DNA from: Candidatus Kaiserbacteria bacterium
Lineage (GTDB): Bacteria; Patescibacteriota; Minisyncoccia; Phycocordibacterales; Phycocordibacteraceae
Assembly (NCBI GenBank): GCA_023264445.1
Contig: JAHFMN010000001.1
Location: forward strand, 177,878 to 241,877
Direction: 5' to 3'
DNA length: 64,000 bases
Shown: one piece after another, positions 11,191 through 28,336 of the stretch
Layout of the letters: every line of letters starts with the position of its first letter
How positions within the stretch are numbered: position 1 is the first letter of the stretch
The notes under the pieces: model-generated
The model's input: the letters and a program-made list of their open reading frames with translations, nothing else
Databases searched by the model: none
Told to the model about the DNA's origin: nothing
Position numbers and translations under genes: made by a program

Positions 11191-12036
11191 ATGATACCAT
11201 CGCCGCTAATGCAAGTACAAATCCTCTGTATTGCCGGCCCTACTGCTTCTGGCAAGTCCTCTCGTGCCGTTCACGAGGCGCTTGCGCGGAGCGGCGAGGT
11301 TATTTCGGTCGACTCGCGGCAAGTATATCGCGGACTCGATATCGGTACCGAGAAGATTTCGCACGAAGAGATGCGGGGAATACCGCATCATCTCATTGAT
11401 ATCCGTGATCCGCAGGAGAACTATTCTGCCGGAGATTTCATAACTGATGCGAAGCGACTCATCGGCGAGATTATCGCTCGCGGCAAGCTGCCCATCCTCG
11501 TCGGGGGAACGCACTTTTATTTTGATGCGCTCCTGCATGGCCTCCCGATGATTGCAGAAGATCCTTTACTGCGAGAAAAGCTTGAAAAGCTTCCGACCGA
11601 GGAATTGTACGCGCGCATCCAAGAGATGGACGCACGCCGTGCGGCCGAGCTTGACCCGCAGAACCGGCGGCGACTCGTCCGCGCACTTGAGATTATCGAA
11701 ACGAAAGGAGAAGTTCCGGCTCGGACTCCGTCTGCGCCGGCATATGAAGCTGAATGGGTCATCATTGATCCCTCTCGCGAAGAACTGCGTGCGCGCATTG
11801 ACGCGCGGCTCACAAAAGCGCTTGAGCGCGGGCTCATAGACGAGGTGCGCCGTGTACGAGAAAAGGTCGGCGATATTCGCCTGAATGAGCTCGGGCTTGA
11901 ATACAAAATCGTCGGGGAATACCTGCGCGGAGAGCGCACCGAATCGTCCCTCCTCCCTACTCTTTCAGCGAAACTCTGGCAGTATGCGCGCCGCCAGAAA
12001 GCATGGCTCCGTAAATTAGGACATTCACTGTATTAA
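11191..12036 (+). CDS. miaA: tRNA dimethylallyltransferase
   Basis: GPTASGKS P-loop, VDSRQVYRGLDIGTEKI, and GGTHFYFDALLHGL. Start chosen at MIPSPLMQ; the ORF is open from 11173. Confidence 0.85.
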   Translation: MIPSPLMQVQILCIAGPTASGKSSRAVHEALARSGEVISVDSRQVYRGLDIGTEKISHEEMRGIPHHLIDIRDPQENYSAGDFITDAKRLIGEIIARGKLPILVGGTHFYFDALLHGLPMIAEDPLLREKLEKLPTEELYARIQEMDARRAAELDPQNRRRLVRALEIIETKGEVPARTPSAPAYEAEWVIIDPSREELRARIDARLTKALERGLIDEVRRVREKVGDIRLNELGLEYKIVGEYLRGERTESSLLPTLSAKLWQYARRQKAWLRKLGHSLY

Positions 12037-12969
12037 TCAGAACGAACAAGAAGACTGCACATAGATGTCCGTATGATTCCCCTCCCAAGTATAAATATTC
12101 CCACATCTATCCCTTACTTGTGATTGACCAAACGAAGGAGGATTGACGGATGCACTACCATTGGTTCCTAGAATGCAGGATATTACATTTTGACCGATAT
12201 CCACCTTTACTCCACTGCTGTGCGAACCTGCTCCTCCTTCACTTGAATGCCCCACTTCGGTACCGCCAGTAACAGTAGTTGCACCACATCTATTTTTTAC
12301 ATTAACGATTTGGGAAATTGTTGCGGCAGACATGCCTGCAAGAGAGGTACAACTACCATTATTTCGATCACAACAATTACCGCTTGATGACACATTGATC
12401 CCCGGCAGAACACTCGCGTATGAAGCTTGGCAGTCTGCTGTCGGTACTACTTGCACGCCCGGTGGAGGCGTTACAGCGGGAGCAAAACTTCCTGCAAGTG
12501 GAATACAGAGATTGCTTGGGTTGCCGGTGACAAGCTCTGACCATGTACCAAGCGTAGAGGTACCGATTGGGGCATTTGCGTTATACAGCGCTGCCATGAT
12601 GGCATCCACGATGAGCCAGCCCGCAAGAGCAATGACGATGCCGACAATGGTACTGGTAAGAATTCCCTTCGCTTTACTGATGCCGCCTGAATTCACTGGG
12701 TTCACGACAAATAGGAATCCGGAATAGGCGAGCATGAGTGGCATGACAAAGACGATGGCAAGCGTGATGAAAAGACTGATGATGTTGTTGATGACAATGA
12801 TGAGCATGGTCCAACTTGCGGCACACACATTCTGATTGGTGACAACGTCGTTAACGGTAATTTGTTCGTTTGGAATGATGGGGCCGAAAAACGGTATGCC
12901 CGCATGCGCAGCATGCGGCAATGCGAACGAGCCCGCTATGAATACAACGGCAAGGAGAGAAAAACGCAT
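12037..12969 (-). CDS. pilin-like (TrbC/VirB2 / T4SS-pilin-like) membrane protein with Cys-rich C-terminal ectodomain
   Basis: 310 aa. Signal peptide, then a two-helix hydrophobic core (IIVINNIISLFITLAIVFVMPLML...GILTSTIVGIVIALAGWLIVDAI) paralogous to the 23.7-26.1 kb array. A Cys-rich tail (NCCDRNNGSC...) follows. Confidence 0.6.
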   Translation of the reverse strand: MRFSLLAVVFIAGSFALPHAAHAGIPFFGPIIPNEQITVNDVVTNQNVCAASWTMLIIVINNIISLFITLAIVFVMPLMLAYSGFLFVVNPVNSGGISKAKGILTSTIVGIVIALAGWLIVDAIMAALYNANAPIGTSTLGTWSELVTGNPSNLCIPLAGSFAPAVTPPPGVQVVPTADCQASYASVLPGINVSSSGNCCDRNNGSCTSLAGMSAATISQIVNVKNRCGATTVTGGTEVGHSSEGGAGSHSSGVKVDIGQNVISCILGTNGSASVNPPSFGQSQVRDRCGNIYTWEGNHTDIYVQSSCSF

Positions 12970-13057
12970 GTTGATATCATACCGCCCTTCACTACGTTCA
13001 GGAGAGCTTTTCCCCGAGATATTAAAGAAACGGTTCTATGCCTGCTATAATGGGTTC

Positions 13058-13720
13058 ATGAAGAGAAAAGAAAGAATGCATGCAATCCAACTTCGTCACG
13101 AAGGAATGACTTTGAATGAGATCACTGCGCGTGTCGGAGTTGCGAAAAGTTCTGTCTCACTCTGGGTTCGTGACCTCTCTCTTTCGCCTAAAGCTCGTGC
13201 CCGCATCATGAGTCTTCAAACAGCTGGCCAGAAAGCCGCACAAAAGACCAATGTTGAAAAGACGAGAACGAAACTTTCGGCTGCAAAAAATGAGGCGCAC
13301 GAGATGATTCAAACGCTGGATGTAACTCCCAATCTTGCACTTCTGTCCTGCGCATTACTTTACTGGTGCGAGGGAGAGAAAGACAAGAATGATACCACTT
13401 TCACATTTTCTAATTCCGATGCCCAATTAATACGGGCATTTATGAGACTGATGCGGTGCGCACTTGAGTTAGATGAACGGAAATTTAGAGTCCGAATGCA
13501 CCTCCACGAATACCACAATCAGACCCTGCAGAGAAAATTCTGGTCAGACGTAACCGGTATTCCGGAACAGCAATTCTCAAAAACTTATTGGAAACCGCAT
13601 ACAGCAAAAACAATAAAGAATGAATACCCTGGGTGCATACACATTGAATATTATGATGTGATAATCGCCCGAAAGATATATGCAACGGCACGAGCTTTTT
13701 TTGAGAATGTGATAAAGTGA
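13058..13720 (+). CDS. HTH plus LAGLIDADG-like (homing-endonuclease-like) domain protein
   Basis: N-terminal HTH (MTLNEITARVGVAKSSVSLWVRD). The C-terminal LLYWCEGEKDKNDTTFTFSNSDAQLIRAFMRLM fits the LAGLIDADG block pattern (acidic G-x-G, then F.F...D..L). A TATAAT box at 13044-13049 sits 8 nt before the ATG. The ORF is open from 12836 but overlaps the upstream gene. Confidence 0.45.
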   Translation: MKRKERMHAIQLRHEGMTLNEITARVGVAKSSVSLWVRDLSLSPKARARIMSLQTAGQKAAQKTNVEKTRTKLSAAKNEAHEMIQTLDVTPNLALLSCALLYWCEGEKDKNDTTFTFSNSDAQLIRAFMRLMRCALELDERKFRVRMHLHEYHNQTLQRKFWSDVTGIPEQQFSKTYWKPHTAKTIKNEYPGCIHIEYYDVIIARKIYATARAFFENVIK

Positions 13721-13729
13721 ACGCGCAAA

Positions 13730-13800
13730 GGGCCCATAGTTCAATGGTAGAATGCGCGGCTCCAAACCGCGTGATCCCTGTTCGAGTCAGGGTGGGCCCG
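13730..13800 (+). tRNA. tRNA-Trp (anticodon CCA)
   Basis: Cloverleaf by hand: acceptor GGGCCCA/TGGGCCC, anticodon stem CGCGG/CCGCG, loop CTCCAAA, T-arm CCCTG-TTCGAGT-CAGGG. Confidence 0.85.
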
Positions 13801-13810
13801 CCGTCAAATC

Positions 13811-13835
13811 AAAAACCGCCGAAGGGCGGTTTTTG
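13811..13835. terminator. bidirectional rho-independent terminator
   Basis: aaaaccgcc-gaag-ggcggtttt. It lies between the tRNA-Trp 3' end (+) and the rpmG 3' end (-). Confidence 0.6.
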
Positions 13836-13836
13836 A

Positions 13837-13992
13837 TTACTTCTTCGTCTCCTTGAAAAGGACGCGCTTGCGCAAGGTGGGATCGAACTTCATGAGTTCG
13901 ATTTTGCGTTCGGTGGTCTTCCGATTCTTACGCGTCCAGACGACATGACTGGACTTCGTAGACTTGAGCCGGAGCAGGCGGTCTTGTGACAT
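13837..13992 (-). CDS. rpmG: 50S ribosomal protein L33 (non-zinc-binding form)
   Basis: Hand-translated 51 aa: MSQDRLLRLKSTKSSHVVWTRKNRKTTERKIELMKFDPTLRKRVLFKETKK. It matches the L33 C-terminal consensus (TKN.RN.P.RLEL.K(F/Y)(D/C)P...R.H.L.KE.K). Below the ORF-track length cutoff. Confidence 0.7.
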   Translation of the reverse strand: MSQDRLLRLKSTKSSHVVWTRKNRKTTERKIELMKFDPTLRKRVLFKETKK

Positions 13993-14019
13993 GCGACTAC
14001 CGTAGCAGAAATGCCGGAT

Positions 14020-20731: not shown

Positions 20732-20803
20732 GGCCCGGTGGTGAAGTGGTAACACAGCGGTCTGCAAAACCGCGATGCGCGGGTTCAATTCCCGCCCGGG
20801 CCT
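20732..20803 (+). tRNA. tRNA-Cys (anticodon GCA)
   Basis: Acceptor GGCCCGG/CCGGGCC, anticodon stem GCGGT/ACCGC, loop CTGCAAA, T-arm GCGGG-TTCAATT-CCCGC. Confidence 0.8.
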
Positions 20804-20833
20804 CAAGCACGAAACGTTGTATCCTGGAGAAAT

Positions 20834-20922
20834 GCCGAGGTGGCGGAATGGTAGACGCACAGGACTTAAAATCCTGAGAGAGCCTAAAAACTCTCATGTG
20901 AGTTCGAGTCTCACTCTCGGTA
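20834..20922 (+). tRNA. tRNA-Leu (anticodon TAA), type II with long variable arm
   Basis: GCCGAGGTGGCGGAATGGTAGACGC, anticodon stem CAGGA/TCCTG, loop CTTAAAA, long variable arm, T-arm GTGAG-TTCGAGT-CTCAC. Confidence 0.85.
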
Positions 20923-20939
20923 CTGATATAGTAGTGAAC

Positions 20940-21779
20940 ATGATGCCTGACGCAATTTGCTATTTCAATGGTTCCTTGGTGCCTTTAAAAGACGCCCGGG
21001 TGAGTCTCATAGACCTCGGGCTTACGCGCGGTTTCGGTATCTACGAGGGCATCACCGCGTTTCAGGGTGAACCGTTCCGCTTCAGCGATCATTGGAAACG
21101 GTTTGAAAATTCTGCACGAGCGCTTCGCCTCTCCCTTCCCTTCTCCGAACAGGAAGTGCTTGAAGCGATGCGTGCAGTCATCGCCGCCAACTCCCCTGGA
21201 GCACGCGCGACGATCCGGATGATTCTTACGGGAGGAGAGGCCGATGGCGGCATTGAGCACGTTGTGGGGCGCGAGACGATCTTCATCACTGCTGAACCAG
21301 CAGTGCCGCTCCCGGAAGCGTTTTACACAAAGGGTGCGTCCATGCAGACGCATGAGCATCAACGATTCCTGCCGGAATACAAAACAACGAATTACATCAC
21401 CGCCGTGCTTCTGCAACAAAAGCGGAAGGAAGCGGGCGCAGTCGAAATATTGTATATCGCAAACGACTCCGTGCTTGAATGCACCGGCAGTAATGTCTTC
21501 ATTGTGAAAGATGGACGGCTCATAACGCCAAAGGATGGCATACTGCACGGCATCACGCGCAAGGTCGCCCTGGAGCTCGCGCAAGGTGCGTATCCGGGAG
21601 AGGAACGTGTAATACCGCTTGATGAACTATTCGACGCAGATGAAGTGTTCATCACCTCGTCGTTTAAAGATATCGTGCCCATCATCACTGTGGATGGAAA
21701 GACTATCGGCTCCGGAGCGCCAGGTCCGATTACTCTTGATTTGATGAAGCGCTTCGCGGAATACGCAAAAACATATTGA
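20940..21779 (+). CDS. class IV aminotransferase (branched-chain amino acid / D-amino acid aminotransferase family)
   Basis: 280 aa from MMPDAICYFNGSLVPLKDARVSLIDLGLTRGFGIYEG. The longer ORF from 20775 would read through the two upstream tRNAs and is rejected. Confidence 0.8.
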   Translation: MMPDAICYFNGSLVPLKDARVSLIDLGLTRGFGIYEGITAFQGEPFRFSDHWKRFENSARALRLSLPFSEQEVLEAMRAVIAANSPGARATIRMILTGGEADGGIEHVVGRETIFITAEPAVPLPEAFYTKGASMQTHEHQRFLPEYKTTNYITAVLLQQKRKEAGAVEILYIANDSVLECTGSNVFIVKDGRLITPKDGILHGITRKVALELAQGAYPGEERVIPLDELFDADEVFITSSFKDIVPIITVDGKTIGSGAPGPITLDLMKRFAEYAKTY

Positions 21780-21893
21780 AGCGAGTGCGTTCATCGTGTA
21801 CTGTTCAAAGCATTGCGCCTATATGTAAGCATATATGCGCTGCGTTCGGCGCAAAAGAATGTTAGATTACTAACGTTCTTTTGACCTCACTTT

Positions 21894-21966
21894 GCGCCTA
21901 TAGCTCAGTTGGTAGAGCAGCTCCCTCTTAAGGAGACGGTCCCTGGTTCGAGCCCAGGTAGGCGCA
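21894..21966 (+). tRNA. tRNA-Lys (anticodon CTT)
   Basis: GCGCCTATAGCTCAGTTGGTAGAGCA..., loop CTCTTAA, T-arm CCTGG-TTCGAGC-CCAGG, acceptor TAGGCGC. There is one G-A mismatch at the top of the anticodon stem. Confidence 0.75.
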
Positions 21967-22077
21967 CAAAAGGGTTCGACTTGCTATAGTTTCAATACGC
22001 TGGGGTATGTAAGCATACTCCAGTCTCGTTCGGGCGATGAGGAAGAATGAAGACATTCTTCCTCATTCCCTCACTTC

Positions 22078-22159
22078 GCTGGGGTGGCGAAATTGGTAGA
22101 CGCACTAGCCTTAGGAGCTAGCGGGGCAACCCATGGAGGTTCGAGTCCTCTCCCCAGCA
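22078..22159 (+). tRNA. tRNA-Leu (anticodon TAG), type II
   Basis: Acceptor GCTGGGG/CCCCAGC, anticodon stem CTAGC/GCTAG, loop CTTAGGA, long variable arm, T-loop TTCGAGT. Confidence 0.85.
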
Positions 22160-22255
22160 CTTGACTTTTCTATAGTTTCGTGTATTATAGTGTGCAGTAA
22201 CAAGGTCTTTTCATTGCAATTCCCAATCAACGTCGATGAGACAGGAGAGATAATC

Positions 22256-23215
22256 ATGACACCGATCGAAAACTTCATTCAGGCTTTCGCGAGCCGGAAA
22301 GCATTCTTCTTCTTCTTCGTGTCCGTGTGCGCAGGACTTATCATCGTCACTGCAATCACGATTCCCGCAGCGTTCTTTCTCAAGCACTATTTGGTGCTGG
22401 GACTTGGTCTCGGGACGGCTTTATGGCTGTACTCAAATGGGAAGGTATTGAAGTTCTTCATGGTTTCGGTTCCTGAAGTAACGGGACTCGTAGCTGTCAA
22501 CCTCCTTACAGGAGATATGAACGCCTACGGGACGGGACTCCATTTCCGTTTCCCATGGGAACAAGTCAAGGAGAGCAACTATATCAATCTGCGGACGATG
22601 AAAACGGACGACAAGCAGGAGACATTTCCCTGCAAAGACGGTCCCGTTATCATCGTTAAGTGGTCGCTCCAGTACCGTTCGTCGGTGGAACAATTGCCTG
22701 CCTATATCGCGGTTGACGAAGAGACCATCAACAAGGGTCTCAACGAGGTGGCAAGCAGTTTCCTAGCCCTCAAGATTCGTGACATGAACTCGGAAGAAAT
22801 CCGAGAGAGGGCAAAAAAAGCCGAGCTCGAGGAAGATCTGTTTAAGCACTTCCGGGAAGAAGCCACCGTCCCGATAAAGATGTCAGACGGGTCAACGGGC
22901 AAGGAAGAGCTGGAGGCGTTCTACGGCATCAGCATCATGTTGGTCACCATCGCCGACGTTGATTTCGAGGTGGACTACCAGAAGGCCCGCTCGACCGATC
23001 AGGTCATGAAAAAGTACAAGGAAACGGCCGAGGCGATCAAGCAGGGCGACGGCAGTATCACAAGCAAGGATGCCCTTGACGGTGTCTTGATGGTTGCTGG
23101 TAAAGGGGTAACGAAAAACGTGATTCAGGAAACCAAGGTGCTGGACGTCACCCCTGCGCTTGCAGACGTTCTGAAAGCAGTGGCAGGAGCATTCTCAAGC
23201 CGCGAAAGGAGCTGA
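22256..23215 (+). CDS. SPFH/band-7 (stomatin/flotillin-like) domain membrane protein
   Basis: 319 aa from MTPIENF, with SD acaGGAGAgataatcATG. N-terminal TM helices, then an SPFH-like region and a charged coiled-coil tail. The ORF is open from 22133 but overlaps the tRNA 3' end. Confidence 0.65.
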   Translation: MTPIENFIQAFASRKAFFFFFVSVCAGLIIVTAITIPAAFFLKHYLVLGLGLGTALWLYSNGKVLKFFMVSVPEVTGLVAVNLLTGDMNAYGTGLHFRFPWEQVKESNYINLRTMKTDDKQETFPCKDGPVIIVKWSLQYRSSVEQLPAYIAVDEETINKGLNEVASSFLALKIRDMNSEEIRERAKKAELEEDLFKHFREEATVPIKMSDGSTGKEELEAFYGISIMLVTIADVDFEVDYQKARSTDQVMKKYKETAEAIKQGDGSITSKDALDGVLMVAGKGVTKNVIQETKVLDVTPALADVLKAVAGAFSSRERS

Positions 23216-23684: not shown

Positions 23685-23718
23685 AAAAGCCGACCGATTC
23701 CCGGTCGGCTTTTTTCTT
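23685..23718. terminator. bidirectional rho-independent terminator
   Basis: aaaagccgaccg-attcc-cggtcggcttttttcttttt, between the convergent 23218-23661 (+) gene and the pilin array (-). Confidence 0.65.
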
Positions 23719-23721
23719 TTT

Positions 23722-24003
23722 CTACTGACCGCCTATGGTCCCGGGAGTAAGCGCAGGCAGACTGAAAGAACCGAGCGCGATATTGATAACGCCGTATGCG
23801 CCGAAGATGATGACAAGTCCCAAAAGACCCCAGAGAATGGCGCGGCGACCTTCTACGCGCTTCGTTTCATCGCCAGCACCCTTGATGAATTCAAACACAC
23901 CCCAGAGGAAGACGACGAACGCCGCTGCTGCCAGAAGCAGGATAATGGGATTAATTATCTGAACGACGACCCTCGAGAGAAACGAGTTGAGAGCGTCAAA
24001 CAT
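23722..24003 (-). CDS. pilin-like small membrane protein (TrbC/VirB2 / T4SS-pilin-like), paralog 1
   Basis: 93 aa. IINPIILLLAAAAFVVFLWGVFEF...ILWGLLGLVIIFGAYGVINIAL two-helix core is shared with 5 neighbours. Confidence 0.6.
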   Translation of the reverse strand: MFDALNSFLSRVVVQIINPIILLLAAAAFVVFLWGVFEFIKGAGDETKRVEGRRAILWGLLGLVIIFGAYGVINIALGSFSLPALTPGTIGGQ

Positions 24004-24389
24004 TAGTGAACCTGGACACCAGCTGAAGGAGTACCGCCTGTAGGGCCGGTATTGTTGCCGAAGCTGACCGTGCCGCTAAAGATATTCACGAGGCCCCAGA
24101 CGGAGACCATCACGAAGAAACCGATAAGGCCCCAAAGCATGAGATTCTTACCCTTCTCCTTCACGTCCTCACTATTTGCTCCCCAGATAAACGTCTCAAA
24201 AGCACCCCAGAGGAAGACGATGAACGCCACCGCGAAGAGGACCGGGACGAGGATATTGTTGATGGTATTGATGACGAAGGAACCGACATCGGAGACATTG
24301 CTGATGGCGGCAGACGAGACGAGCGGCAGCGCAAGAGCTGCGAGCGTTCCGGAAGTAAGGGCAGTAACTTTTATCAGAGCTTTTTTCAT
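24003..24389 (-). CDS. pilin-like membrane protein, paralog 2
   Basis: 128 aa. Signal peptide, then NNILVPVLFAVAFIVFLWGAFETF...LMLWGLIGFFVMVSVWGLVNI. Confidence 0.65.
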   Translation of the reverse strand: MKKALIKVTALTSGTLAALALPLVSSAAISNVSDVGSFVINTINNILVPVLFAVAFIVFLWGAFETFIWGANSEDVKEKGKNLMLWGLIGFFVMVSVWGLVNIFSGTVSFGNNTGPTGGTPSAGVQVH

Positions 24390-24472
24390 AGTAAGGGTAA
24401 GTGGATAACGCTGTTATTGTATCGCCCCTAGGGGCAGGGTCAATCGTGCTCCGAGGATTTGTGTGGACAATC

Positions 24473-24964
24473 CTAGATCCTCGGCGCCGGAGGCGCGTTG
24501 TTGCTCACCCCCGTAGCGGGAATGAGGGTACCCTTCACGATATTGACGAGTCCCCACAAGGAGCCAATGATGACGAAACCGATAACGCCCCAAAGGACGA
24601 ACTGCCGACCGGATTTGCGGTCTTCGTCGCTGGCAGCGCCAAGGATGAAATATTTGTAGACACCGTAGAGGAAGACAATGAAGGAAACGGCGATGAGAAT
24701 GGGGACAAGGATTTCGTTAATGAACGACGTAATGAGATCTTTGTAAAAAGTAGCCCATTGTAGGTTCGCACTGCCCGCGCCTGTCGTACTATCTGGCTGG
24801 CAGATACCGGAAACGTTGCAGTGACCGGCCACTGAAGATTGGATGCACTGATTCCCTGTCGCACCGGGATAATCGCAACTTGCATCAACCGCGAAGGCCG
24901 CAATTGGGGCGCCGAAGGCACCTATAAGCGTGAAGAGTGCTACGAGTCTCGAGATTTTTTTCAT
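24473..24964 (-). CDS. pilin-like membrane protein, paralog 3 (Cys-containing ectodomain)
   Basis: 163 aa. Signal peptide, Cys-rich segment CDYPGATGNQCIQSSVAGHCNVSGICQPD, then the conserved core NEILVPILIAVSFIVFLYG...FVLWGVIGFVIIGSLWGLVNI. Confidence 0.65.
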   Translation of the reverse strand: MKKISRLVALFTLIGAFGAPIAAFAVDASCDYPGATGNQCIQSSVAGHCNVSGICQPDSTTGAGSANLQWATFYKDLITSFINEILVPILIAVSFIVFLYGVYKYFILGAASDEDRKSGRQFVLWGVIGFVIIGSLWGLVNIVKGTLIPATGVSNNAPPAPRI

Positions 24965-24975
24965 AGTGTAGTGAT

Positions 24976-25413
24976 TTAGAACGACCTCGGAGTCGGGGGC
25001 GCGTACGAGCCGGCGAGGCCGAAGGTGTTCGCGACGACGTTGACCAGCCCCCAGAGCGATACCATGACGACGAAACCGATAATACCCCAGAGGATAAGCT
25101 TATGTCCGCGCTTGACTGCCTCTTCATCCCCCCTACTGAATATGTAGGCATCCGCGACGCCATACAGGAAGACGATGAATGCCAGAGCGAAAAGCACTGG
25201 TACGAGTATGCCGTTGATGATGTAGAGGATATTCTGTGCGACGCCGCAGATAGTGGTCGTGCAGACGCCGAAGCCGGTACCGGCGTTATAAAAGATGCCC
25301 CAGGTTCCCCCGGAATTTTGTTGAACAATCCCTACACCCTGCGCGAGCGCAGCTACCGGAGTAAAGGCGGCGAGAAATGCGAGAGCGGTGCGGGTGATTG
25401 ATGTAGTAGTCAT
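24976..25413 (-). CDS. pilin-like membrane protein, paralog 4
   Basis: 145 aa. Signal peptide, then core INGILVPVLFALAFIVFLYG...LILWGIIGFVVMVSLWGLVNV. Confidence 0.65.
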   Translation of the reverse strand: MTTTSITRTALAFLAAFTPVAALAQGVGIVQQNSGGTWGIFYNAGTGFGVCTTTICGVAQNILYIINGILVPVLFALAFIVFLYGVADAYIFSRGDEEAVKRGHKLILWGIIGFVVMVSLWGLVNVVANTFGLAGSYAPPTPRSF

Positions 25414-25434
25414 AGATAGGGTAAGTATGACACG

Positions 25435-25722
25435 TCAGGCAGCAGGTGCGACGCCGAGCGTGGATAACAGTATATTCACGAATCCCCAGACCGAAAAGAG
25501 AACTACCATCCCGATAAGGCCCCAGAGGACGAAGTACCGCCCTTCCGCTCGCTTCTTCTCATCGTCGACGTGGAGGAAGAAATAGTTCATAATGCCCCAG
25601 ACGAATGCCGCGAAAGCGAAGGCAAAAATGACGGGCACAACGAAGTTGTTAACCAAACCGATGATGCCGGTATTGCCGCTTCCAACCCAATCCTTGAAGC
25701 TCGTGCCGCCAGAGAGATTCAT
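25435..25722 (-). CDS. pilin-like membrane protein, paralog 5
   Basis: 95 aa from MNLSGGTSFKDW. Core NNFVVPVIFAFAFAAFVWG...FVLWGLIGMVVLFSVWGFVNI. The Arg-rich upstream ORF extension to 25962 is rejected. Confidence 0.6.
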   Translation of the reverse strand: MNLSGGTSFKDWVGSGNTGIIGLVNNFVVPVIFAFAFAAFVWGIMNYFFLHVDDEKKRAEGRYFVLWGLIGMVVLFSVWGFVNILLSTLGVAPAA

Positions 25723-25724
25723 AA

Positions 25725-26147
25725 TTAGCCGCCAAGCGCTTGCACAGTTGCCTTGATGGCCATGGCTATCGCCTGCGACCCGAGCAATACAAGGGAGCCA
25801 ATAACCGTCCAGAGAAGTGCTTTTCGTGCTTCGATAATCTTCGTTTCGTTCCCTTGTGCAACGACAAATAGGTACCCCACATACACCACCATCAGGACGA
25901 CGACGATGCTGCCGATTCGAATCACGAAGGCAAGAATGTTGAGGAGAAATGATTCCAAGCAATTTCCATTACTCTGGCTACAATCGACTCCACTCAATGG
26001 GTTAATGAGGCGAATGCTGGAACCGTTATTACTTCCGCCTCCACTCGTAACGGTCTGATTATTTCCGCCTCCACTCGTAACGGTCTGGGCAAATGCGAAG
26101 GGGGCAAATGCGAGAAAGAAAATAGCAATGATGAAAGAGCGTGTCAT
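25725..26147 (-). CDS. pilin-like membrane protein, paralog 6 (with internal 30-bp tandem duplication)
   Basis: 140 aa. Signal peptide, QTVTSGGGNN/QTVTSGGGSN repeat, then core LNILAFVIRIGSIVVVLMVVYVGYLF...ALLWTVIGSLVLLGSQAIAMAI. Confidence 0.6.
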   Translation of the reverse strand: MTRSFIIAIFFLAFAPFAFAQTVTSGGGNNQTVTSGGGSNNGSSIRLINPLSGVDCSQSNGNCLESFLLNILAFVIRIGSIVVVLMVVYVGYLFVVAQGNETKIIEARKALLWTVIGSLVLLGSQAIAMAIKATVQALGG

Positions 26148-27448
26148 TGTTGCAGTAGAGCGTTTAAGGAACGCTCGGCGGAGGCGAGTGCGGTTTCAAG
26201 CGAGGAGCGACCACTTATCACATCCCCAATCATACCCGAGAAGACAGCGTCCGTAGCCGCAGGCGCTGGGGACAGCCATCCGCGTGTGTAGAGTGCTTCA
26301 GCATATCCGATGGCTGCTATCGGATCGGCAGGAGTAGTAGCAAGTTCTGCGAGAGCTGCTGGTGCGAGTCCGGTTGAAGCCGCAACAGCTGCTTGTGCAG
26401 CTTGGTTTGCAAGCAGTATCGCCGCTTGGTACGCACCGGGGGCATTCTTCGCCCCGCGCGGCATCATAAATGCATACATGAGGCCGTAGGCGCTTTTTAT
26501 ACTTGCTGTTGCCGGCTGCGGCAGGAATGCGACATCGAAATTAAGATTTGGATTCGCAGCGTGCAGGAAGCGCGCTTCAGAAATATATCCGAGGTAGAGC
26601 GCCAAGTCTCCTGCAAGGAATGCCTGCTGCGAATTAGGGAGCGATGCATTCCAGGTGTACGAGACTTTTGAAGGGTCGGTGAACTGCGTGTAGAAGCCGA
26701 CTACGGGCGGTCCGTGAGGCAGGCCGCTCGTCTGTGCCGTTACGCCGAGACTTGCCGAGAGGACACCACTTGCCGCATATGAAGAGAGAGGGACTCCCTG
26801 CTGCAGAAAGAGCGCAGAGAGTATTCCGCGCGCATTGTGGACATTGTCATAGGTGCCAAGTGCAATCAGACCGCGCGTCACTTGCCGCGTCGGGGTGAGC
26901 TCCGCAATTTTCGGGACGAGGCCGACCAGCGCTTCCCAGGTCGTGGGCGGCTGCGCTATGCCGCTACTTGAAAGAATGGAGCGGTTAGAAAAGAGCACAA
27001 GCGGGTCGACGAGAAACGGCACGCCGTAGTAGCCGCCCGGCGCGGTGAAGATGCTGCCCCCTTCGAGGAAGGCGCTTGTAAAGGTGCGCACGGGGAGCGT
27101 TGAGAGATCGATAGGCGTGATGAATTTCGCAAGCGTGCGCAGTTGTTCCTGCGAAGCGAGGACGAGGTCGGGCGCATTACCGGTAGCAATGGCGGCGGCG
27201 AGATCTGACGGAAGCGATGACGGATCCTTCTGTACATACGAGACCGACTTGAGCGATTGGTCAGCGCGTGTAGCGGCTGCGAGAGCCGATTCCATTCCTG
27301 CTTTCGGCAGAGTCCCCCAGATGACGACGGTTCCTACGGCATTTGCATTGCCATTGTTACTCGTATAGGTGGCGAAGACGAAGAGACCGACGAGCGCGGC
27401 GAGACCGAATATGCCGAATAGGATGCCTTGGAAAAGAGAAATTTTCAT
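26144..27448 (-). CDS. extracellular solute-binding protein (ABC-transporter SBP family 1-like), membrane-anchored
   Basis: 434 aa. N-terminal TM anchor, then GTVVIWGTLP...; the length and composition are typical of sugar-type SBPs. No cognate permease in the window. Confidence 0.5.
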   Translation of the reverse strand: MKISLFQGILFGIFGLAALVGLFVFATYTSNNGNANAVGTVVIWGTLPKAGMESALAAATRADQSLKSVSYVQKDPSSLPSDLAAAIATGNAPDLVLASQEQLRTLAKFITPIDLSTLPVRTFTSAFLEGGSIFTAPGGYYGVPFLVDPLVLFSNRSILSSSGIAQPPTTWEALVGLVPKIAELTPTRQVTRGLIALGTYDNVHNARGILSALFLQQGVPLSSYAASGVLSASLGVTAQTSGLPHGPPVVGFYTQFTDPSKVSYTWNASLPNSQQAFLAGDLALYLGYISEARFLHAANPNLNFDVAFLPQPATASIKSAYGLMYAFMMPRGAKNAPGAYQAAILLANQAAQAAVAASTGLAPAALAELATTPADPIAAIGYAEALYTRGWLSPAPAATDAVFSGMIGDVISGRSSLETALASAERSLNALLQQ

Positions 27449-27981
27449 GGCGCTGTAAATATAATACCGTAGTGATGCGCTCCCGCTCTAAATGATTTCG
27501 TCTTGTGGAAGCCCCCGCCGATGAAGAAATCCTCGGCCTCATGCTCGGTAATGACCTGCTCGGGTACCGGACCCATGCCGCCATAGCTGCCGGCCCAGTC
27601 CACGAGCATGAGCTTGCCGCCCGGCTTCAGGACCCGCTTAATCTCCGCGAGAAGCCCGGCACGATTCTCTACCTGAAAGAGTGTGTTTGCGAGGATAACG
27701 GCATCGAGTGATTGGTCGCGCAGGTGCGTGCCGCCCGGCTTCTCGATATCCCCCCAGACCGTATTGATAATGTTCTGGTGGTGCTGGTGCGCATTCAACT
27801 TCAGATGCTTGAGCACGTCTTCCTGGATATCAACGGCATACACTTTTCCACCGTGTCCGATGATGGGTGCTATGGCGCGCGCGTAGTGGCCTGAACCTGC
27901 ACCGAAATCACCGACCTTCATGCCGTCCCGCAGACCAAGCTGAAGGACGTTCTCTTTTGGAGAACTAAACGTAGCGCTCAT
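27445..27981 (-). CDS. class I SAM-dependent methyltransferase
   Basis: 178 aa from MSATFSS. VGDFGAGSGHYA (motif I), VYAVDIQ, and LKPGGKLMLVDW (post-II). The upstream extension to 28194 is rejected. Confidence 0.75.
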   Translation of the reverse strand: MSATFSSPKENVLQLGLRDGMKVGDFGAGSGHYARAIAPIIGHGGKVYAVDIQEDVLKHLKLNAHQHHQNIINTVWGDIEKPGGTHLRDQSLDAVILANTLFQVENRAGLLAEIKRVLKPGGKLMLVDWAGSYGGMGPVPEQVITEHEAEDFFIGGGFHKTKSFRAGAHHYGIIFTAP

Positions 27982-28003
27982 ATGTATAAAATAGCACGCG
28001 CCC

Positions 28004-28063
28004 TCTTCCGAGGGCGCGCAATTAACATATGAAAATGATTCAGGCCGCTCCTCCGGGCGGCCT
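28004..28063. terminator. tandem GC hairpins downstream of the gyrA operon
   Basis: gcgcgccctc-ttcc-gagggcgcgc followed by ggccgc-tcctccgg-gcggcc. No strong T-run. Confidence 0.35.
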
Positions 28064-28069
28064 GTGTGC

Positions 28070-28336
28070 TTAGTGCACCATCTTACTTCGTGACACGCTT
28101 GGCTGACTGGTCTGGCTGCGCATGCTCCACCGAATGTGCGCTTTCTTCTCGAGAGCCACCGCAGCTGCCTCCTCGGGCGTGTGCCCGTACGCAAAGGTAT
28201 CCATCGTCTGCCCCGTGTGCAGACGATCCAGCGAGCCGGTGCCGGGTGTCACAACCCGAACCAGATACGGCATCGGACAGTTCGGGGAGTGTTCAATCAT
28301 ATACGTTTCCCCTGCGAGCATTTCGAAGGCGTTCAT
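28070..28336 (-). CDS. hypothetical small protein
   Basis: 88 aa ORF immediately downstream of gyrA on the same strand. No recognisable domain. Confidence 0.3.
   Translation of the reverse strand: MNAFEMLAGETYMIEHSPNCPMPYLVRVVTPGTGSLDRLHTGQTMDTFAYGHTPEEAAAVALEKKAHIRWSMRSQTSQPSVSRSKMVH

What the first reader, a model, noticed from the sequence alone, without database searches (positions are those of the whole stretch)
23722..26147. Tandem array of six pilin-like paralogs (TrbC/VirB2 or CPR T4SS-pilin-like) with hypervariable ectodomains
Six consecutive minus-strand genes of 93-175 aa share a conserved two-helix hydrophobic core (I/LxxILVPxxFAxAFIVFLxG ... ILWGxIGxVxxxSxWGxVNI). A seventh gene at 12037-12969 has the same core. 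Their N-terminal secreted segments are unrelated to each other: some Cys-rich, one with a Gly-rich internal duplication, and the seventh with a 150-aa Cys-rich C-terminal tail. This is the architecture of conjugative/T4SS pilins and of the pilin family that Pfam associates with CPR bacteria. A diversified tandem array suggests a variable cell-surface filament or adhesin repertoire, possibly used for host attachment. No cognate T4SS or T4P ATPase is in this window.
Basis: partly seen in the sequence, partly recalled or inferred. Interest (0 to 1): 0.7.

Follow-up and report, generated by a model that had tools for sequence, protein, structure and literature searches.

The report
Six-gene T4SS-type pilin set, Kaiserbacteria
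The six small tandem genes are real VirB2-like "type IV secretion pilin" paralogs of an ultrasmall (Patescibacteria/CPR) bacterium; such arrays were already described in 2023-2025, but here the six form a fixed, anciently conserved set rather than a shuffling repertoire.

Summary
Six tandem minus-strand genes (23722-26147) share a signal-peptide plus two-helix hairpin design. Five pass Pfam T4SS_pilin (PF18895). The sixth (g6) and the distant seventh (g7, 12037-12969) miss it themselves, but their orthologs match it. The window is a Candidatus Kaiserbacteria chromosome with no VirB4, VirB6 or VirD4 in it or within 10 kb beyond. Six relatives that carry the same array are listed as VirB4-positive in a published survey.

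VirB2-like pilin arrays of 2-11 genes are already reported in 383 Patescibacteria assemblies, and a six-pilin array is essential in Southlakia epibionticum. This is therefore a new member of a known kind.

What the comparison adds:
- 42 of 45 complete syntenic loci keep exactly six genes in the same order, with position-specific orthology and no concerted evolution.
- Length and sequence variation is confined to the outward-facing ends of three positions. It is often C-terminal, not only N-terminal.
- A conserved TTGACC-N16-TACAAT promoter precedes the two most conserved genes (g2, g1). This suggests major versus minor subunits.
- The array is tightly coupled to an orphan solute-binding-protein gene.
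- g7 is a pilin module fused to a probable cell-wall hydrolase domain that is swapped among relatives.

The "variable repertoire" reading is only partly supported.

The parts
25725..26147 (-). g6, position 1 of the array. It is a divergent T4SS_pilin paralog of 140 aa with a signal peptide, a 30-nt tandem duplication (TVTSGGGxNN twice), two Cys, and then a two-helix hairpin.
   Evidence: PF18895 scores 21.2 bits, below the 26.6 cut-off. Same-position orthologs L014_p1 and L019_p1 score 34.6 and 34.4 bits. The start codon overlaps the stop of the SBP gene (ATGA). The tandem repeat is at 26028-26087.
25435..25722 (-). g5, position 2. It is a 95-aa hairpin-only pilin paralog with no signal peptide.
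   Evidence: PF18895 scores 34.6 bits. The ATG at 25722 lies two bases after the g6 stop. Public gene calls give 95 aa. Orthologs are 83-95 aa and Cys-free.
24976..25413 (-). g4, position 3. It is 145 aa, with a signal peptide, a variable N-terminal ecto-segment (2 Cys) and the hairpin.
   Evidence: PF18895 scores 32.8 bits. Between orthologs the core is 68% identical and the N-region 23%, with N-region length 12-77 aa.
24473..24964 (-). g3, position 4. It is 163 aa, with a signal peptide, a 4-Cys N-terminal ecto-segment and the hairpin. This is the most length-variable position in relatives (95-466 aa).
   Evidence: PF18895 scores 28.6 bits. Orthologs carry C-terminal tails of up to 389 aa with up to 28 Cys.
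24416..24443 (-). Internal sigma-70-type promoter, TTGACC-N16-TACAAT, ending 26 nt upstream of the g2 ATG.
   Evidence: It is the best promoter-like site of the region, 10 of 12 matches. The same hexamers and spacing occur in 40 of 42 syntenic loci, while the spacer sequence differs.
24003..24389 (-). g2, position 5. It is 128 aa, with a signal peptide, a short conserved N-segment and the hairpin. It is the most conserved paralog and the candidate major subunit.
   Evidence: PF18895 scores 38.6 bits. Mean core identity between species is 81%. The AF2 model gives helices 32-69 and 74-107 with pLDDT 84-92.
23722..24003 (-). g1, position 6. It is a 93-aa hairpin-only paralog whose start overlaps the g2 stop (TAATG).
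   Evidence: PF18895 scores 28.9 bits. Mean core identity between species is 75%. The overlap is read from the sequence.
23685..23713 (.). GC-rich hairpin between the convergent genes g1 (-) and the 147-aa ORF (+). It probably ends the array's transcript.
   Evidence: The terminator scan finds 12 pairs plus a T-run on the + strand. On the - strand the same hairpin is followed by only TTTT.
26144..27448 (-). Membrane-anchored orphan solute-binding protein (SBP_bac_8 / SBP_bac_1), immediately upstream of the array and translationally coupled to it.
   Evidence: Pfam scores are 76.7 and 70.1 bits. It is 56-75% identical in 51 species. It is always followed by the array. The gap from its stop to the position-1 start has a median of 1 nt, and 40 of 43 are 5 nt or less.
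27445..28194 (-). Class I SAM methyltransferase gene, overlapping the SBP start. It is the probable first gene of the same transcription unit, with a promoter-like site at 28399-28371.
   Evidence: Methyltransf_11 scores 66.9 bits. The order MT-SBP-array is conserved in all loci. The promoter-like site has 9 of 12 matches. A functional link to the pilins is not shown.
12037..12969 (-). g7, 310 aa. It has a signal peptide, a conserved IPFFGPII motif, a g6-type pilin hairpin (about residues 50-130), a linker, and a folded C-terminal domain with the invariant residues H250, D257 and H299. This domain is probably a LAS (Hedgehog/DD-peptidase) type cell-wall peptidase.
   Evidence: - g7 has no Pfam hit of its own, but 50 of 56 orthologs hit PF18895.
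- A profile of position-1 orthologs matches it at E 4e-6.
- Relatives with the same N-module carry SLT, SLT_3, CHAP-like or VanY-like domains instead.

Best explanation
The locus encodes a fixed set of six non-redundant VirB2-like (Pfam T4SS_pilin) hairpin proteins of a Candidatus Kaiserbacteria cell.

Shown:
- family membership;
- a two-helix hairpin with a short K/R/D/E-rich loop;
- cleavable-looking signal peptides on four of the six;
- strict six-gene order and position-specific orthology across more than 40 species;
- variation limited to the ends that would face outward in three positions;
- a conserved consensus-like promoter in front of the two most conserved genes;
- tight coupling to an SBP gene.

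Inferred mechanism:
1. The proteins are inserted by Sec with both termini outside and the charged loop in the cytoplasm.
2. They are then extracted and assembled by the MPF-FATA-like T4SS (VirB4, TrsD, VirB3, VirB6) that relatives encode elsewhere in the chromosome. The product is a wall-spanning or extracellular pilus or conduit.
3. g2 and g1, expressed from their own promoter, would be the bulk (major) subunits.
4. g6, g5, g4 and g3, co-translated with the SBP at a lower level, would be minor, initiating or tip subunits. Their lineage-specific Cys-rich ends would contact the host cell.
5. The separate g7 protein uses the same kind of hairpin to carry a peptidoglycan hydrolase to the same site. 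There it would open the cell wall, its own or the host's, in a VirB1-like role.
For: Family:
- PF18895 is above its cut-off for g1-g5, for g6 orthologs, and for the top 120 database relatives of g2.
- NCBIfam NF045849, the Mycoplasma ICE pilin-like conjugal transfer protein, matches g1-g5 at E 1e-9 to 1e-5 over the full 80-residue model, though below the equivalog cut-off.

Fold: AF2 gives a hairpin with pLDDT 84-92. The g7 hairpin aligns to 81 of 84 residues of an archaeal conjugation pilin.

Fixed set: 42 of 45 complete loci read 1-2-3-4-5-6. Identity at the same position is 51-81%, against 17-50% across positions, and within-genome values equal between-species values.

Variable ends: core identity is 61-68% against 18-24% in the N-regions of positions 1, 3 and 4. 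Tails reach 389 aa with 28 Cys. Positions 2, 5 and 6 are length-invariant and Cys-free.

Promoter. SBP coupling.

T4SS present in relatives: six genomes with this locus are VirB4-positive in Table S1 of PMC12102498.

Precedent:
- Pilin arrays occur in 383 Patescibacteria assemblies.
- Six divergent pilins are essential in S. epibionticum.

g7.
Against: - No T4SS gene lies in the 64-kb window or in 10 kb beyond either end. The link to a T4SS therefore rests on relatives and on the literature.
- TrbC/VirB2 Pfam is not matched significantly (E 0.17).
- Profile searches of PDB sequences find no solved pilin.
- No pilus has been seen for any Patescibacteria T4SS.
- The major/minor assignment rests on a promoter motif and on conservation, not on expression data.
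Confidence: 0.6

Rival explanations
1. First reader's reading. The array is a diversified repertoire of alternative pilins or adhesins, used interchangeably or varied between strains for host attachment or antigenic variation, as proposed for the VirB2 paralog arrays of Bartonella and Anaplasma.
For: - Paralogs are only 17-50% identical in the core, and their ecto-segments are unrelated.
- Three positions show large lineage-specific changes in ecto-segment length and Cys content.
- g6 carries a recent 30-nt duplication.
- The literature suggests that such versatility might aid adaptation to different host strains.
Against: - Copy number and order are nearly invariant over more than 40 species.
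- Every paralog is kept as its own ortholog lineage under conservation, with no sign of gene conversion or recent duplication.
- Three of the six have no exposed variable part.
- A repertoire under diversifying selection would be expected to show gain, loss and homogenisation.
Confidence: 0.15
2. The hairpins do not polymerise into a pilus. They form a membrane-embedded hetero-oligomer, or act as two-helix anchors that display ecto-modules (Cys-rich binders, wall hydrolases) on the cell surface. They would work with the co-translated solute-binding protein in capture or uptake of host-derived compounds, with or without the T4SS.
For: - The SBP gene is fused into the same translational unit in 40 of 43 species, and no ABC permease or ATPase was found among the ORFs scanned.
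- The same hairpin module is fused to many different ecto-domains.
- The locus lies far from any T4SS gene.
- No Patescibacteria T4SS pilus has been observed.
Against: - The three most conserved members are bare hairpins with nothing to display. The hairpin itself is therefore the functional part, as in a polymer subunit.
- According to the literature the family sits next to virB4 in 1135 assemblies.
- The SBP may share the operon for reasons of expression only.
Confidence: 0.2
3. The genes encode holin-like or other phage- or mobile-element-derived small membrane proteins unrelated to secretion.
For: They are small two-helix membrane proteins. No positive evidence was found beyond that.
Against: - No PHROGs family matches any of the seven.
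- The locus is a vertically inherited core-genome neighbourhood, MBL-GyrA-MT-SBP-array-IF2, in 50 species.
- Four members have signal peptides.
- PF18895 is matched above its cut-off.
Confidence: 0.01

Closest known systems
VirB2-like pilin arrays of Patescibacteria. Examples are the six essential pilins in the T4SS cluster SEML1_0006-0019 of Southlakia epibionticum ML1, the 'Sec-secreted array' of six putative effector genes of Nanosynbacter lyticus TM7x, and 441 arrays of 2-11 genes in 383 assemblies.
   Same: - Same Pfam family (PF18895).
- Tandem arrangement, with low identity between paralogs: the literature reports an average of 25% and a maximum of 54%, and here it is 17-50%.
- Monoderm ultrasmall host.
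- Six members, as in ML1 and TM7x.
   Different: - This array is not inside or near a T4SS cluster. No T4SS gene lies within at least about 33 kb on one side and 48 kb on the other.
- It is embedded in housekeeping genes and translationally coupled to an SBP gene.
[quoted passage not shown]
- Whether the six are one-to-one orthologs of the Saccharibacteria six was not tested.
VirB2 / TrbC / TraA conjugative pilins of diderm T4SS (Agrobacterium T-pilus, F-pilus; Pfam PF04956)
   Same: The design is the same: a signal peptide, two hydrophobic helices and a short charged loop. By analogy, both termini would sit on the outer face and the loop toward the lumen. This rests on established knowledge of those pili. 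The fold is consistent.
   Different: - No significant sequence match: TrbC gives E 0.17 for g2, and one g7 ortholog gives E 0.003.
- The cell envelope is monoderm.
- There are six obligatory paralogs instead of one major pilin.
- Long ecto-extensions occur on some members.
Mbov_0395 family pilin-like conjugal transfer protein of Mycoplasma ICEs (NCBIfam NF045849)
   Same: It is significant by E-value (1e-9 to 1e-5) over the full 80-residue model for g1-g5. It belongs to the conjugation machinery of monoderms, the class to which Patescibacteria VirB4 is reported to be related.
   Different: - Scores of 24.6-37.7 bits are below the equivalog cut-off of 40.
- It is a single gene on a mobile element, not a chromosomal six-gene set.
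VirB2 paralog arrays of Bartonella and Anaplasma
   Same: They show tandem amplification and divergence of the pilin gene (cited).
   Different: Those arrays are read as antigenic or host-range variation. Here the paralogs are ancient, fixed in number and individually conserved.
VirB1-type wall hydrolases of monoderm T4SS (PrgK of pCF10, TraG of pIP501, TcpG of pCW3), for g7
   Same: These are membrane-anchored proteins carrying interchangeable peptidoglycan-hydrolase domains (SLT, CHAP, metallopeptidase). This rests on established knowledge.
   Different: The anchor here is a T4SS_pilin-type two-helix hairpin rather than a single helix. The gene sits at a conserved ClpB-miaA locus, not in a T4SS cluster.
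Major/minor pilin organisation of type IV pili
   Same: This is a functional analogy only. One or two abundant conserved subunits are joined by several low-abundance subunits that carry binding functions.
   Different: The protein family is unrelated. There is no class III (prepilin peptidase) signal sequence here, as the sequences show directly.

Membership tests
Pfam T4SS_pilin (PF18895) | HMM score at or above the gathering cut-off of 26.6 bits | tested here: met
   g1 scores 28.9, g2 38.6, g3 28.6, g4 32.8 and g5 34.6 bits. g6 scores 21.2 bits (not met), but its positional orthologs score 34.4-34.6. g7 has no hit, but 50 of 56 orthologs match at E 0.1 or better, the best at 2.4e-8.
Pfam T4SS_pilin (PF18895) | Two long hydrophobic helices joined by a short polar loop, usually after a signal peptide | tested here: met
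   The AF2 model of g2 has helices 32-69 and 74-107 with pLDDT 84-92, and helix 3-26 is the signal peptide. The g7 model has helices 53-89 and 94-128. g1 and g5 lack the signal peptide.
VirB2/TrbC conjugative pilin (PF04956) and T4SS pilus subunit | Significant sequence similarity to TrbC/VirB2 | tested here: not met
   The best is g2, at E 0.17 and 12.6 bits against a cut-off of 27.9. No PDB pilin is found by profile search.
VirB2/TrbC conjugative pilin (PF04956) and T4SS pilus subunit | Fold match to solved conjugative pilins, specific enough to exclude other hairpins | tested here: inconclusive
VirB2/TrbC conjugative pilin (PF04956) and T4SS pilus subunit | Encoded with, or in the same genome as, VirB4 and other T4SS parts | tested here: inconclusive
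   None was found in the window or within 10 kb beyond. Six relatives with the same locus are VirB4-positive in a published table. The rest of this genome could not be read.
VirB2/TrbC conjugative pilin (PF04956) and T4SS pilus subunit | Polymerises into a pilus (with bound lipid) in a VirB4-dependent way | not testable with these tools
   This needs microscopy or biochemistry. It has not been shown for any Patescibacteria system.
Patescibacteria VirB2-like pilin array (Wang 2023; Quinonero-Coronel 2025) | Two or more pilin genes in tandem (or separated by one gene) in a Patescibacteria genome, with low identity between them | tested here: met
   Six adjacent genes. The source is Kaiserbacteria. 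Core identity between paralogs is 17-50%.
Patescibacteria VirB2-like pilin array (Wang 2023; Quinonero-Coronel 2025) | Located inside the T4SS gene cluster (as in S. epibionticum) | tested here: not met
   Housekeeping neighbours only. The survey itself reports pilin genes away from virB4 in about 40% of assemblies, so this feature is not obligatory.
Holin / phage small membrane protein | Match to a phage family, or a neighbouring lysis or phage gene | tested here: not met
   No PHROGs hit for any of the seven. The locus is a conserved chromosomal neighbourhood.
LAS (Hedgehog/DD-peptidase, peptidase M15-like) zinc peptidase, for the g7 C-domain | Characteristic fold with H-x6-D and a distal H as metal ligands | tested here: inconclusive
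- H250, D257 and H299 are invariant in 56 orthologs.
- One ortholog hits VanY at E 0.0015.
- Against this, there is no Pfam hit for g7 itself, Foldseek on PDB finds nothing, and hhalign to the other tail types is not significant.

The most novel reading that the evidence does not exclude
A stoichiometrically fixed hetero-polymer of six VirB2-like subunits is an ancestral feature of the Patescibacteria T4SS. The same number is found in Saccharibacteria and here in Paceibacteria. It would have two promoter-boosted major subunits and four minor subunits whose Cys-rich ends set host specificity. It would work with a pilin-anchored wall hydrolase (g7) and a co-translated solute-binding protein as a host-piercing uptake device, rather than as an export or conjugation machine.
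Probability: 0.2. Interest if true: 0.75.

Novelty: new member of a known kind. Interest (0 to 1): 0.42.

Why it matters
The role of the essential T4SS and its pilin array in ultrasmall epibiotic bacteria is an open question. This locus does not change the picture that such arrays exist. The comparison across about 45 Kaiserbacteria species does give testable constraints:
- The six pilins are individually conserved and therefore probably all needed together. This argues against simple antigenic variation.
- Two of them have their own strong, conserved promoter.
- Variation is concentrated on the exposed ends of three members.
- The set is co-translated with an orphan solute-binding protein.
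- A seventh pilin-type hairpin carries exchangeable cell-wall hydrolase domains.

These points suggest concrete experiments on subunit stoichiometry, host-specificity determinants and wall breaching in tractable relatives.

Tried and rejected
2. Foldseek on PDB with the g7 model found no hit below E = 1.
3. Profile searches of PDB sequences with the g7 family and the g2 family found nothing.
4. Pfam on six long-tailed orthologs and on the g7 tail alone found no recognised domain apart from weak Cys-knot-like repeats in one protein.
5. hhalign between the different C-terminal tail types of g7 relatives was not significant, so common ancestry of the tail types is not claimed.
6. NCBIfam on the SBP, the 147-aa, 255-aa and 992-aa ORFs gave nothing specific.
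7. The motif CTATCCACA, conserved upstream of the internal promoter in relatives, is not enriched elsewhere in the window, so a regulon could not be proposed.
8. I extended the view 10 kb beyond both window ends to look for VirB4 and found none.
9. The cluster look-up to name the source genome returned no names.
10. The holin idea was rejected.
11. Type IV pilus (T4P) pilins were rejected because no class III signal sequence is present (direct reading).
12. An ATP-synthase c-subunit-like ring was considered. No such Pfam match appeared.


Full report
**What is there.** The region 23722-26147 holds six head-to-tail ORFs on the minus strand. They are g6 25725-26147, g5 25435-25722, g4 24976-25413, g3 24473-24964, g2 24003-24389 and g1 23722-24003.

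The ATG two bases after the g6 stop gives 95 aa. That agrees with public gene calls on two other assemblies of the same sequence and with orthologs of 83-95 aa.
- An HMM built from g1-g5 recovers these five at E 1e-37 to 1e-50 among all 899 six-frame ORFs of the window, g6 at 4e-4 and the distant gene g7 (12037-12969) at 0.059.
- The core is also visible as a 4-5-copy DNA repeat at 63-77% identity.
- The Gly-rich duplication in g6 is a 30-nt tandem repeat, two copies with 96% matches.

**Family.** Pfam T4SS_pilin (PF18895) is matched above its 26.6-bit cut-off by g1-g5, at 28.6-38.6 bits. g6 reaches 21.2 bits and g7 gets nothing.

- NCBIfam NF045849, the pilin-like conjugal transfer protein of Mycoplasma ICEs, matches g1-g5 at E 1e-9 to 1e-5 over its whole length, below its equivalog cut-off.
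- TrbC/VirB2 (PF04956) is not matched significantly (E 0.17).
- No phage family matches any of the seven.
- The family is very large. A profile of g2 with its paralogs and orthologs finds 13,980 representatives at 50% identity with E at or below 1e-3.

**Where it comes from, and the missing machinery.** Pfam scans of the large ORFs show an ordinary small-genome chromosome. They find GyrA, IF-2, ClpB, LepA, MurJ, FtsA, FtsZ, signal peptidase I, tRNA synthetases and 11 tRNA genes. They find no VirB4, VirB6, VirD4 or pilus ATPase.

- Extending 10 kb beyond each end on other assemblies of the same genome also shows none.
- The solute-binding protein (SBP) gene just upstream of the array has relatives at 56-75% identity in 51 species genomes. 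Most are named Candidatus Kaiserbacteria or Paceibacterota.
- Six of those genomes are in the dataset of Quinonero-Coronel et al. 2025 (PMC12102498), and all six are listed as VirB4-positive.
It could not be checked for this genome itself.

**What is already known.** That paper searched 3,035 Patescibacteria genomes with PF18895 and other pilin profiles.

- It found VirB2-like genes in 1,948 VirB4-positive assemblies, near virB4 in 1,135 of them.
- It found 441 arrays of 2-11 pilin genes in 383 assemblies, with an average identity of 25% within arrays.
- Wang et al. 2023 (PMC10633639) showed that a series of predicted pilins inside the T4SS cluster of Southlakia epibionticum is essential.
- A 2025 review (PMC12857230) counts six structurally conserved, sequence-divergent VirB2-like pilins there. 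It speculates about a pilus used as a conduit for uptake from the host.
- TM7x has six adjacent 'putative effector' genes in the same region. These are what the 2025 survey calls its Sec-secreted array and groups with the pilin arrays.

The finding is thus a new member of a described kind.

**What the comparison adds.** In the 51 related loci the order MBL-fold gene, GyrA, methyltransferase, SBP, pilin genes and (further on) IF-2 is conserved.

- Gene calling downstream of the SBP gives exactly six pilin genes in 42 loci, always with the same length pattern.
- By best position-specific profile, 42 of 45 complete loci read 1-2-3-4-5-6. The three exceptions have one extra or one missing gene. 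This classification is partly circular, because the profiles were built by position.
- The independent test is the identity matrix over 65 well-aligned core columns. Same-position identity between species is 51, 62, 69, 61, 81 and 75% for positions 1-6. Cross-position identity is 17-50%. Paralogs within one genome are exactly as different as paralogs from different species.
- The duplications therefore predate this radiation. There is no concerted evolution, and each paralog is kept.
- This does not fit a repertoire of interchangeable variants. It fits six non-redundant parts of one assembly.

**Where the variation is.**

- Positions 2, 5 and 6 (g5, g2, g1) are length-invariant and Cys-free. 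For position 5 even the flanks are 62-64% identical.
- Positions 1, 3 and 4 (g6, g4, g3) have cores 61-68% identical but N-regions only 18-24% identical. Their N-regions run 8-203 aa and their C-terminal tails up to 262-389 aa, with up to 24-28 Cys.
- In the longest orthologs the extension follows the hairpin rather than preceding it.
- With the charged loop inside the cell, both ends face outward. An extension at either end would therefore be displayed. This topology is inferred from the positive-inside rule and from analogy with VirB2.
- The tails have no recognised Pfam domain, apart from weak Cys-knot-like repeats in one protein.

**Operon structure.**

- Gaps between the genes are 1-19 nt (median), except between positions 4 and 5, where the median is 83 nt.
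- In the window that gap holds the best promoter-like site of the region, TTGACC-N16-TACAAT at 24443-24416 on the minus strand.
- The same hexamers and spacing, ending 26 nt before the ATG in nearly all loci that have them, occur in 40 of 42 species, while the spacer sequence varies.
- g2 and g1 overlap (TAATG), and a GC-rich hairpin follows them at 23685-23713.
- Upstream, the SBP stop and the g6 start overlap (ATGA). The median gap is 1 nt, and 40 of 43 species have 5 nt or less.
- I infer two units. The first is methyltransferase-SBP-g6-g5-g4-g3. The second, probably stronger, is g2-g1, which holds the two most conserved paralogs. That is the pattern expected for minor and major subunits. 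It is an inference without expression data.

**The seventh gene.**

- g7 is not a close relative of g1-g5. It matches a profile of position-1 (g6-type) orthologs at E 4e-6.
- Its own orthologs (40-69% identical to g7, about 300-540 aa) are often named 'pilin' by NCBI, and 50 of 56 match PF18895.
- Residues P18-P30, C49, C155, H250, D257 and H299 are invariant or nearly so.
- The AF2 model has mean pLDDT 78, and above 90 for most of the C-domain. It shows the hairpin, a disordered linker and a compact alpha/beta domain.
- The hedgehog N-domain shares its fold with LAS/DD-peptidases (established knowledge).
- The segment TGGTEVGH...SHSSGVKVD...NHTDI resembles, from memory, the metal-site segments of Shh and of VanY-type peptidases. 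I treat that as a lead only.
- One ortholog hits VanY at E 0.0015. Foldseek on PDB found nothing.
- More telling is a domain swap. Database proteins whose first 150 or so residues are 60-70% identical to g7 carry different C-domains. These are SLT (88 bits), SLT_3 (29.7 bits, above cut-off), CHAP-like (17 bits, weak) and VanY-like (13.9 bits, weak).
- The g7-type and SLT-type genes sit next to ClpB, and the two g7-type loci with sequence downstream show miaA on the other side. The SLT-variant contig ends at the gene, so miaA cannot be seen there.
- A pilin-type hairpin that carries exchangeable wall-hydrolase domains points to a VirB1-like function, or to attack on the host wall. I did not find this described in the papers I read.

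**Most likely mechanism and its weak points.** I take the six proteins to be Sec-inserted VirB2-like hairpins. The distal T4SS would assemble them into a wall-spanning or extracellular filament or conduit. g2 and g1 would be bulk subunits, and g6, g5, g4 and g3 minor subunits. The variable Cys-rich ends would contact the host, and g7 would supply local wall hydrolysis.

- Shown: family membership, fold type, fixed six-fold orthology, location of the variation, the conserved promoter, SBP coupling, and domain swapping in the g7 family.
- Inferred: the link to the T4SS of this genome, polymerisation, major/minor roles, the host-binding role of the tails, and the enzymatic activity of g7.

The main rival is a non-polymerising membrane complex, or a display anchor, working with the SBP in uptake.

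**Verdict.** The family assignment is right. The 'variable repertoire' reading is only partly right. The kind of system is already published, so novelty is modest. The fixed six-ortholog set, the internal promoter, the SBP coupling and the pilin-hydrolase fusion are useful new details.

Noticed in passing
window 12037-12969 (-); relatives P0230, P0201, P0213, P0153; loci L058-L060: g7 is a pilin-type hairpin fused to a probable LAS-type wall peptidase. Relatives with a near-identical N-module carry SLT, SLT_3, CHAP-like or VanY-like domains instead. The g7-type and SLT-type genes both sit next to ClpB, and miaA is seen on the other side in the two loci that extend that far. This looks like in-place swapping of cell-wall hydrolase domains.
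   Followed up: yes
window 24416-24443 (-); pos4-pos5 intergenic gaps of L003-L053: A consensus-like promoter, TTGACC-N16-TACAAT, ends 26 nt before the g2 start. It is conserved in 40 of 42 species although the spacer differs. A conserved CTATCCACA(C) motif lies upstream of the -35 in relatives, and a related TTATCCAC lies in the leader. This may be a regulator site.
   Followed up: partly
window 26144-27448 (-): An orphan membrane-anchored solute-binding protein (SBP_bac_8/1) has no ABC permease or ATPase among the ORFs scanned. It is translationally coupled to the first pilin gene in 40 of 43 species. Its ligand, and any functional tie to the pilins, are unknown.
   Followed up: partly
proteins P0241-P0243, P0245-P0247, P0332: Some database representatives of the family carry 2-3 pilin hairpins in one polypeptide, and one carries 7. 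These are either true tandem-pilin fusions or merged gene calls.
   Followed up: no
window 53992-56970 (-); L054 1-3476: A 992-aa ORF has no Pfam or NCBIfam match. A giant gene just beyond the right end of the window has a called product of 2178 aa, matches Gly_rich_2 and runs over the end of the locus. Both may be surface proteins.
   Followed up: no
window 12000-14000: This stretch has low GC (0.47 against about 0.55). It holds g7 and an HTH_23 ORF (12836-13720, whose long form overlaps the 5' end of g7) next to tRNA-Trp (13730-13802). The HTH gene is absent at this position in two relatives (L058, L060), so it is a variable islet.
   Followed up: partly
window 20732-22160: The longest-ORF calls for the class IV aminotransferase (20775-21779) and the SPFH protein (22133-23215) overlap tRNA genes (Cys, Leu-taa, Leu-tag). 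The true starts must lie further downstream, and public calls give 319 aa for the SPFH protein.
   Followed up: no
L009, L034, L049: These are the only departures from the six-gene pattern. L009 has an extra position-5-like gene, L034 has an extra position-3-like gene of 325 aa, and the most divergent locus, L049, has five genes reading 1-4-4-5-6.
   Followed up: partly
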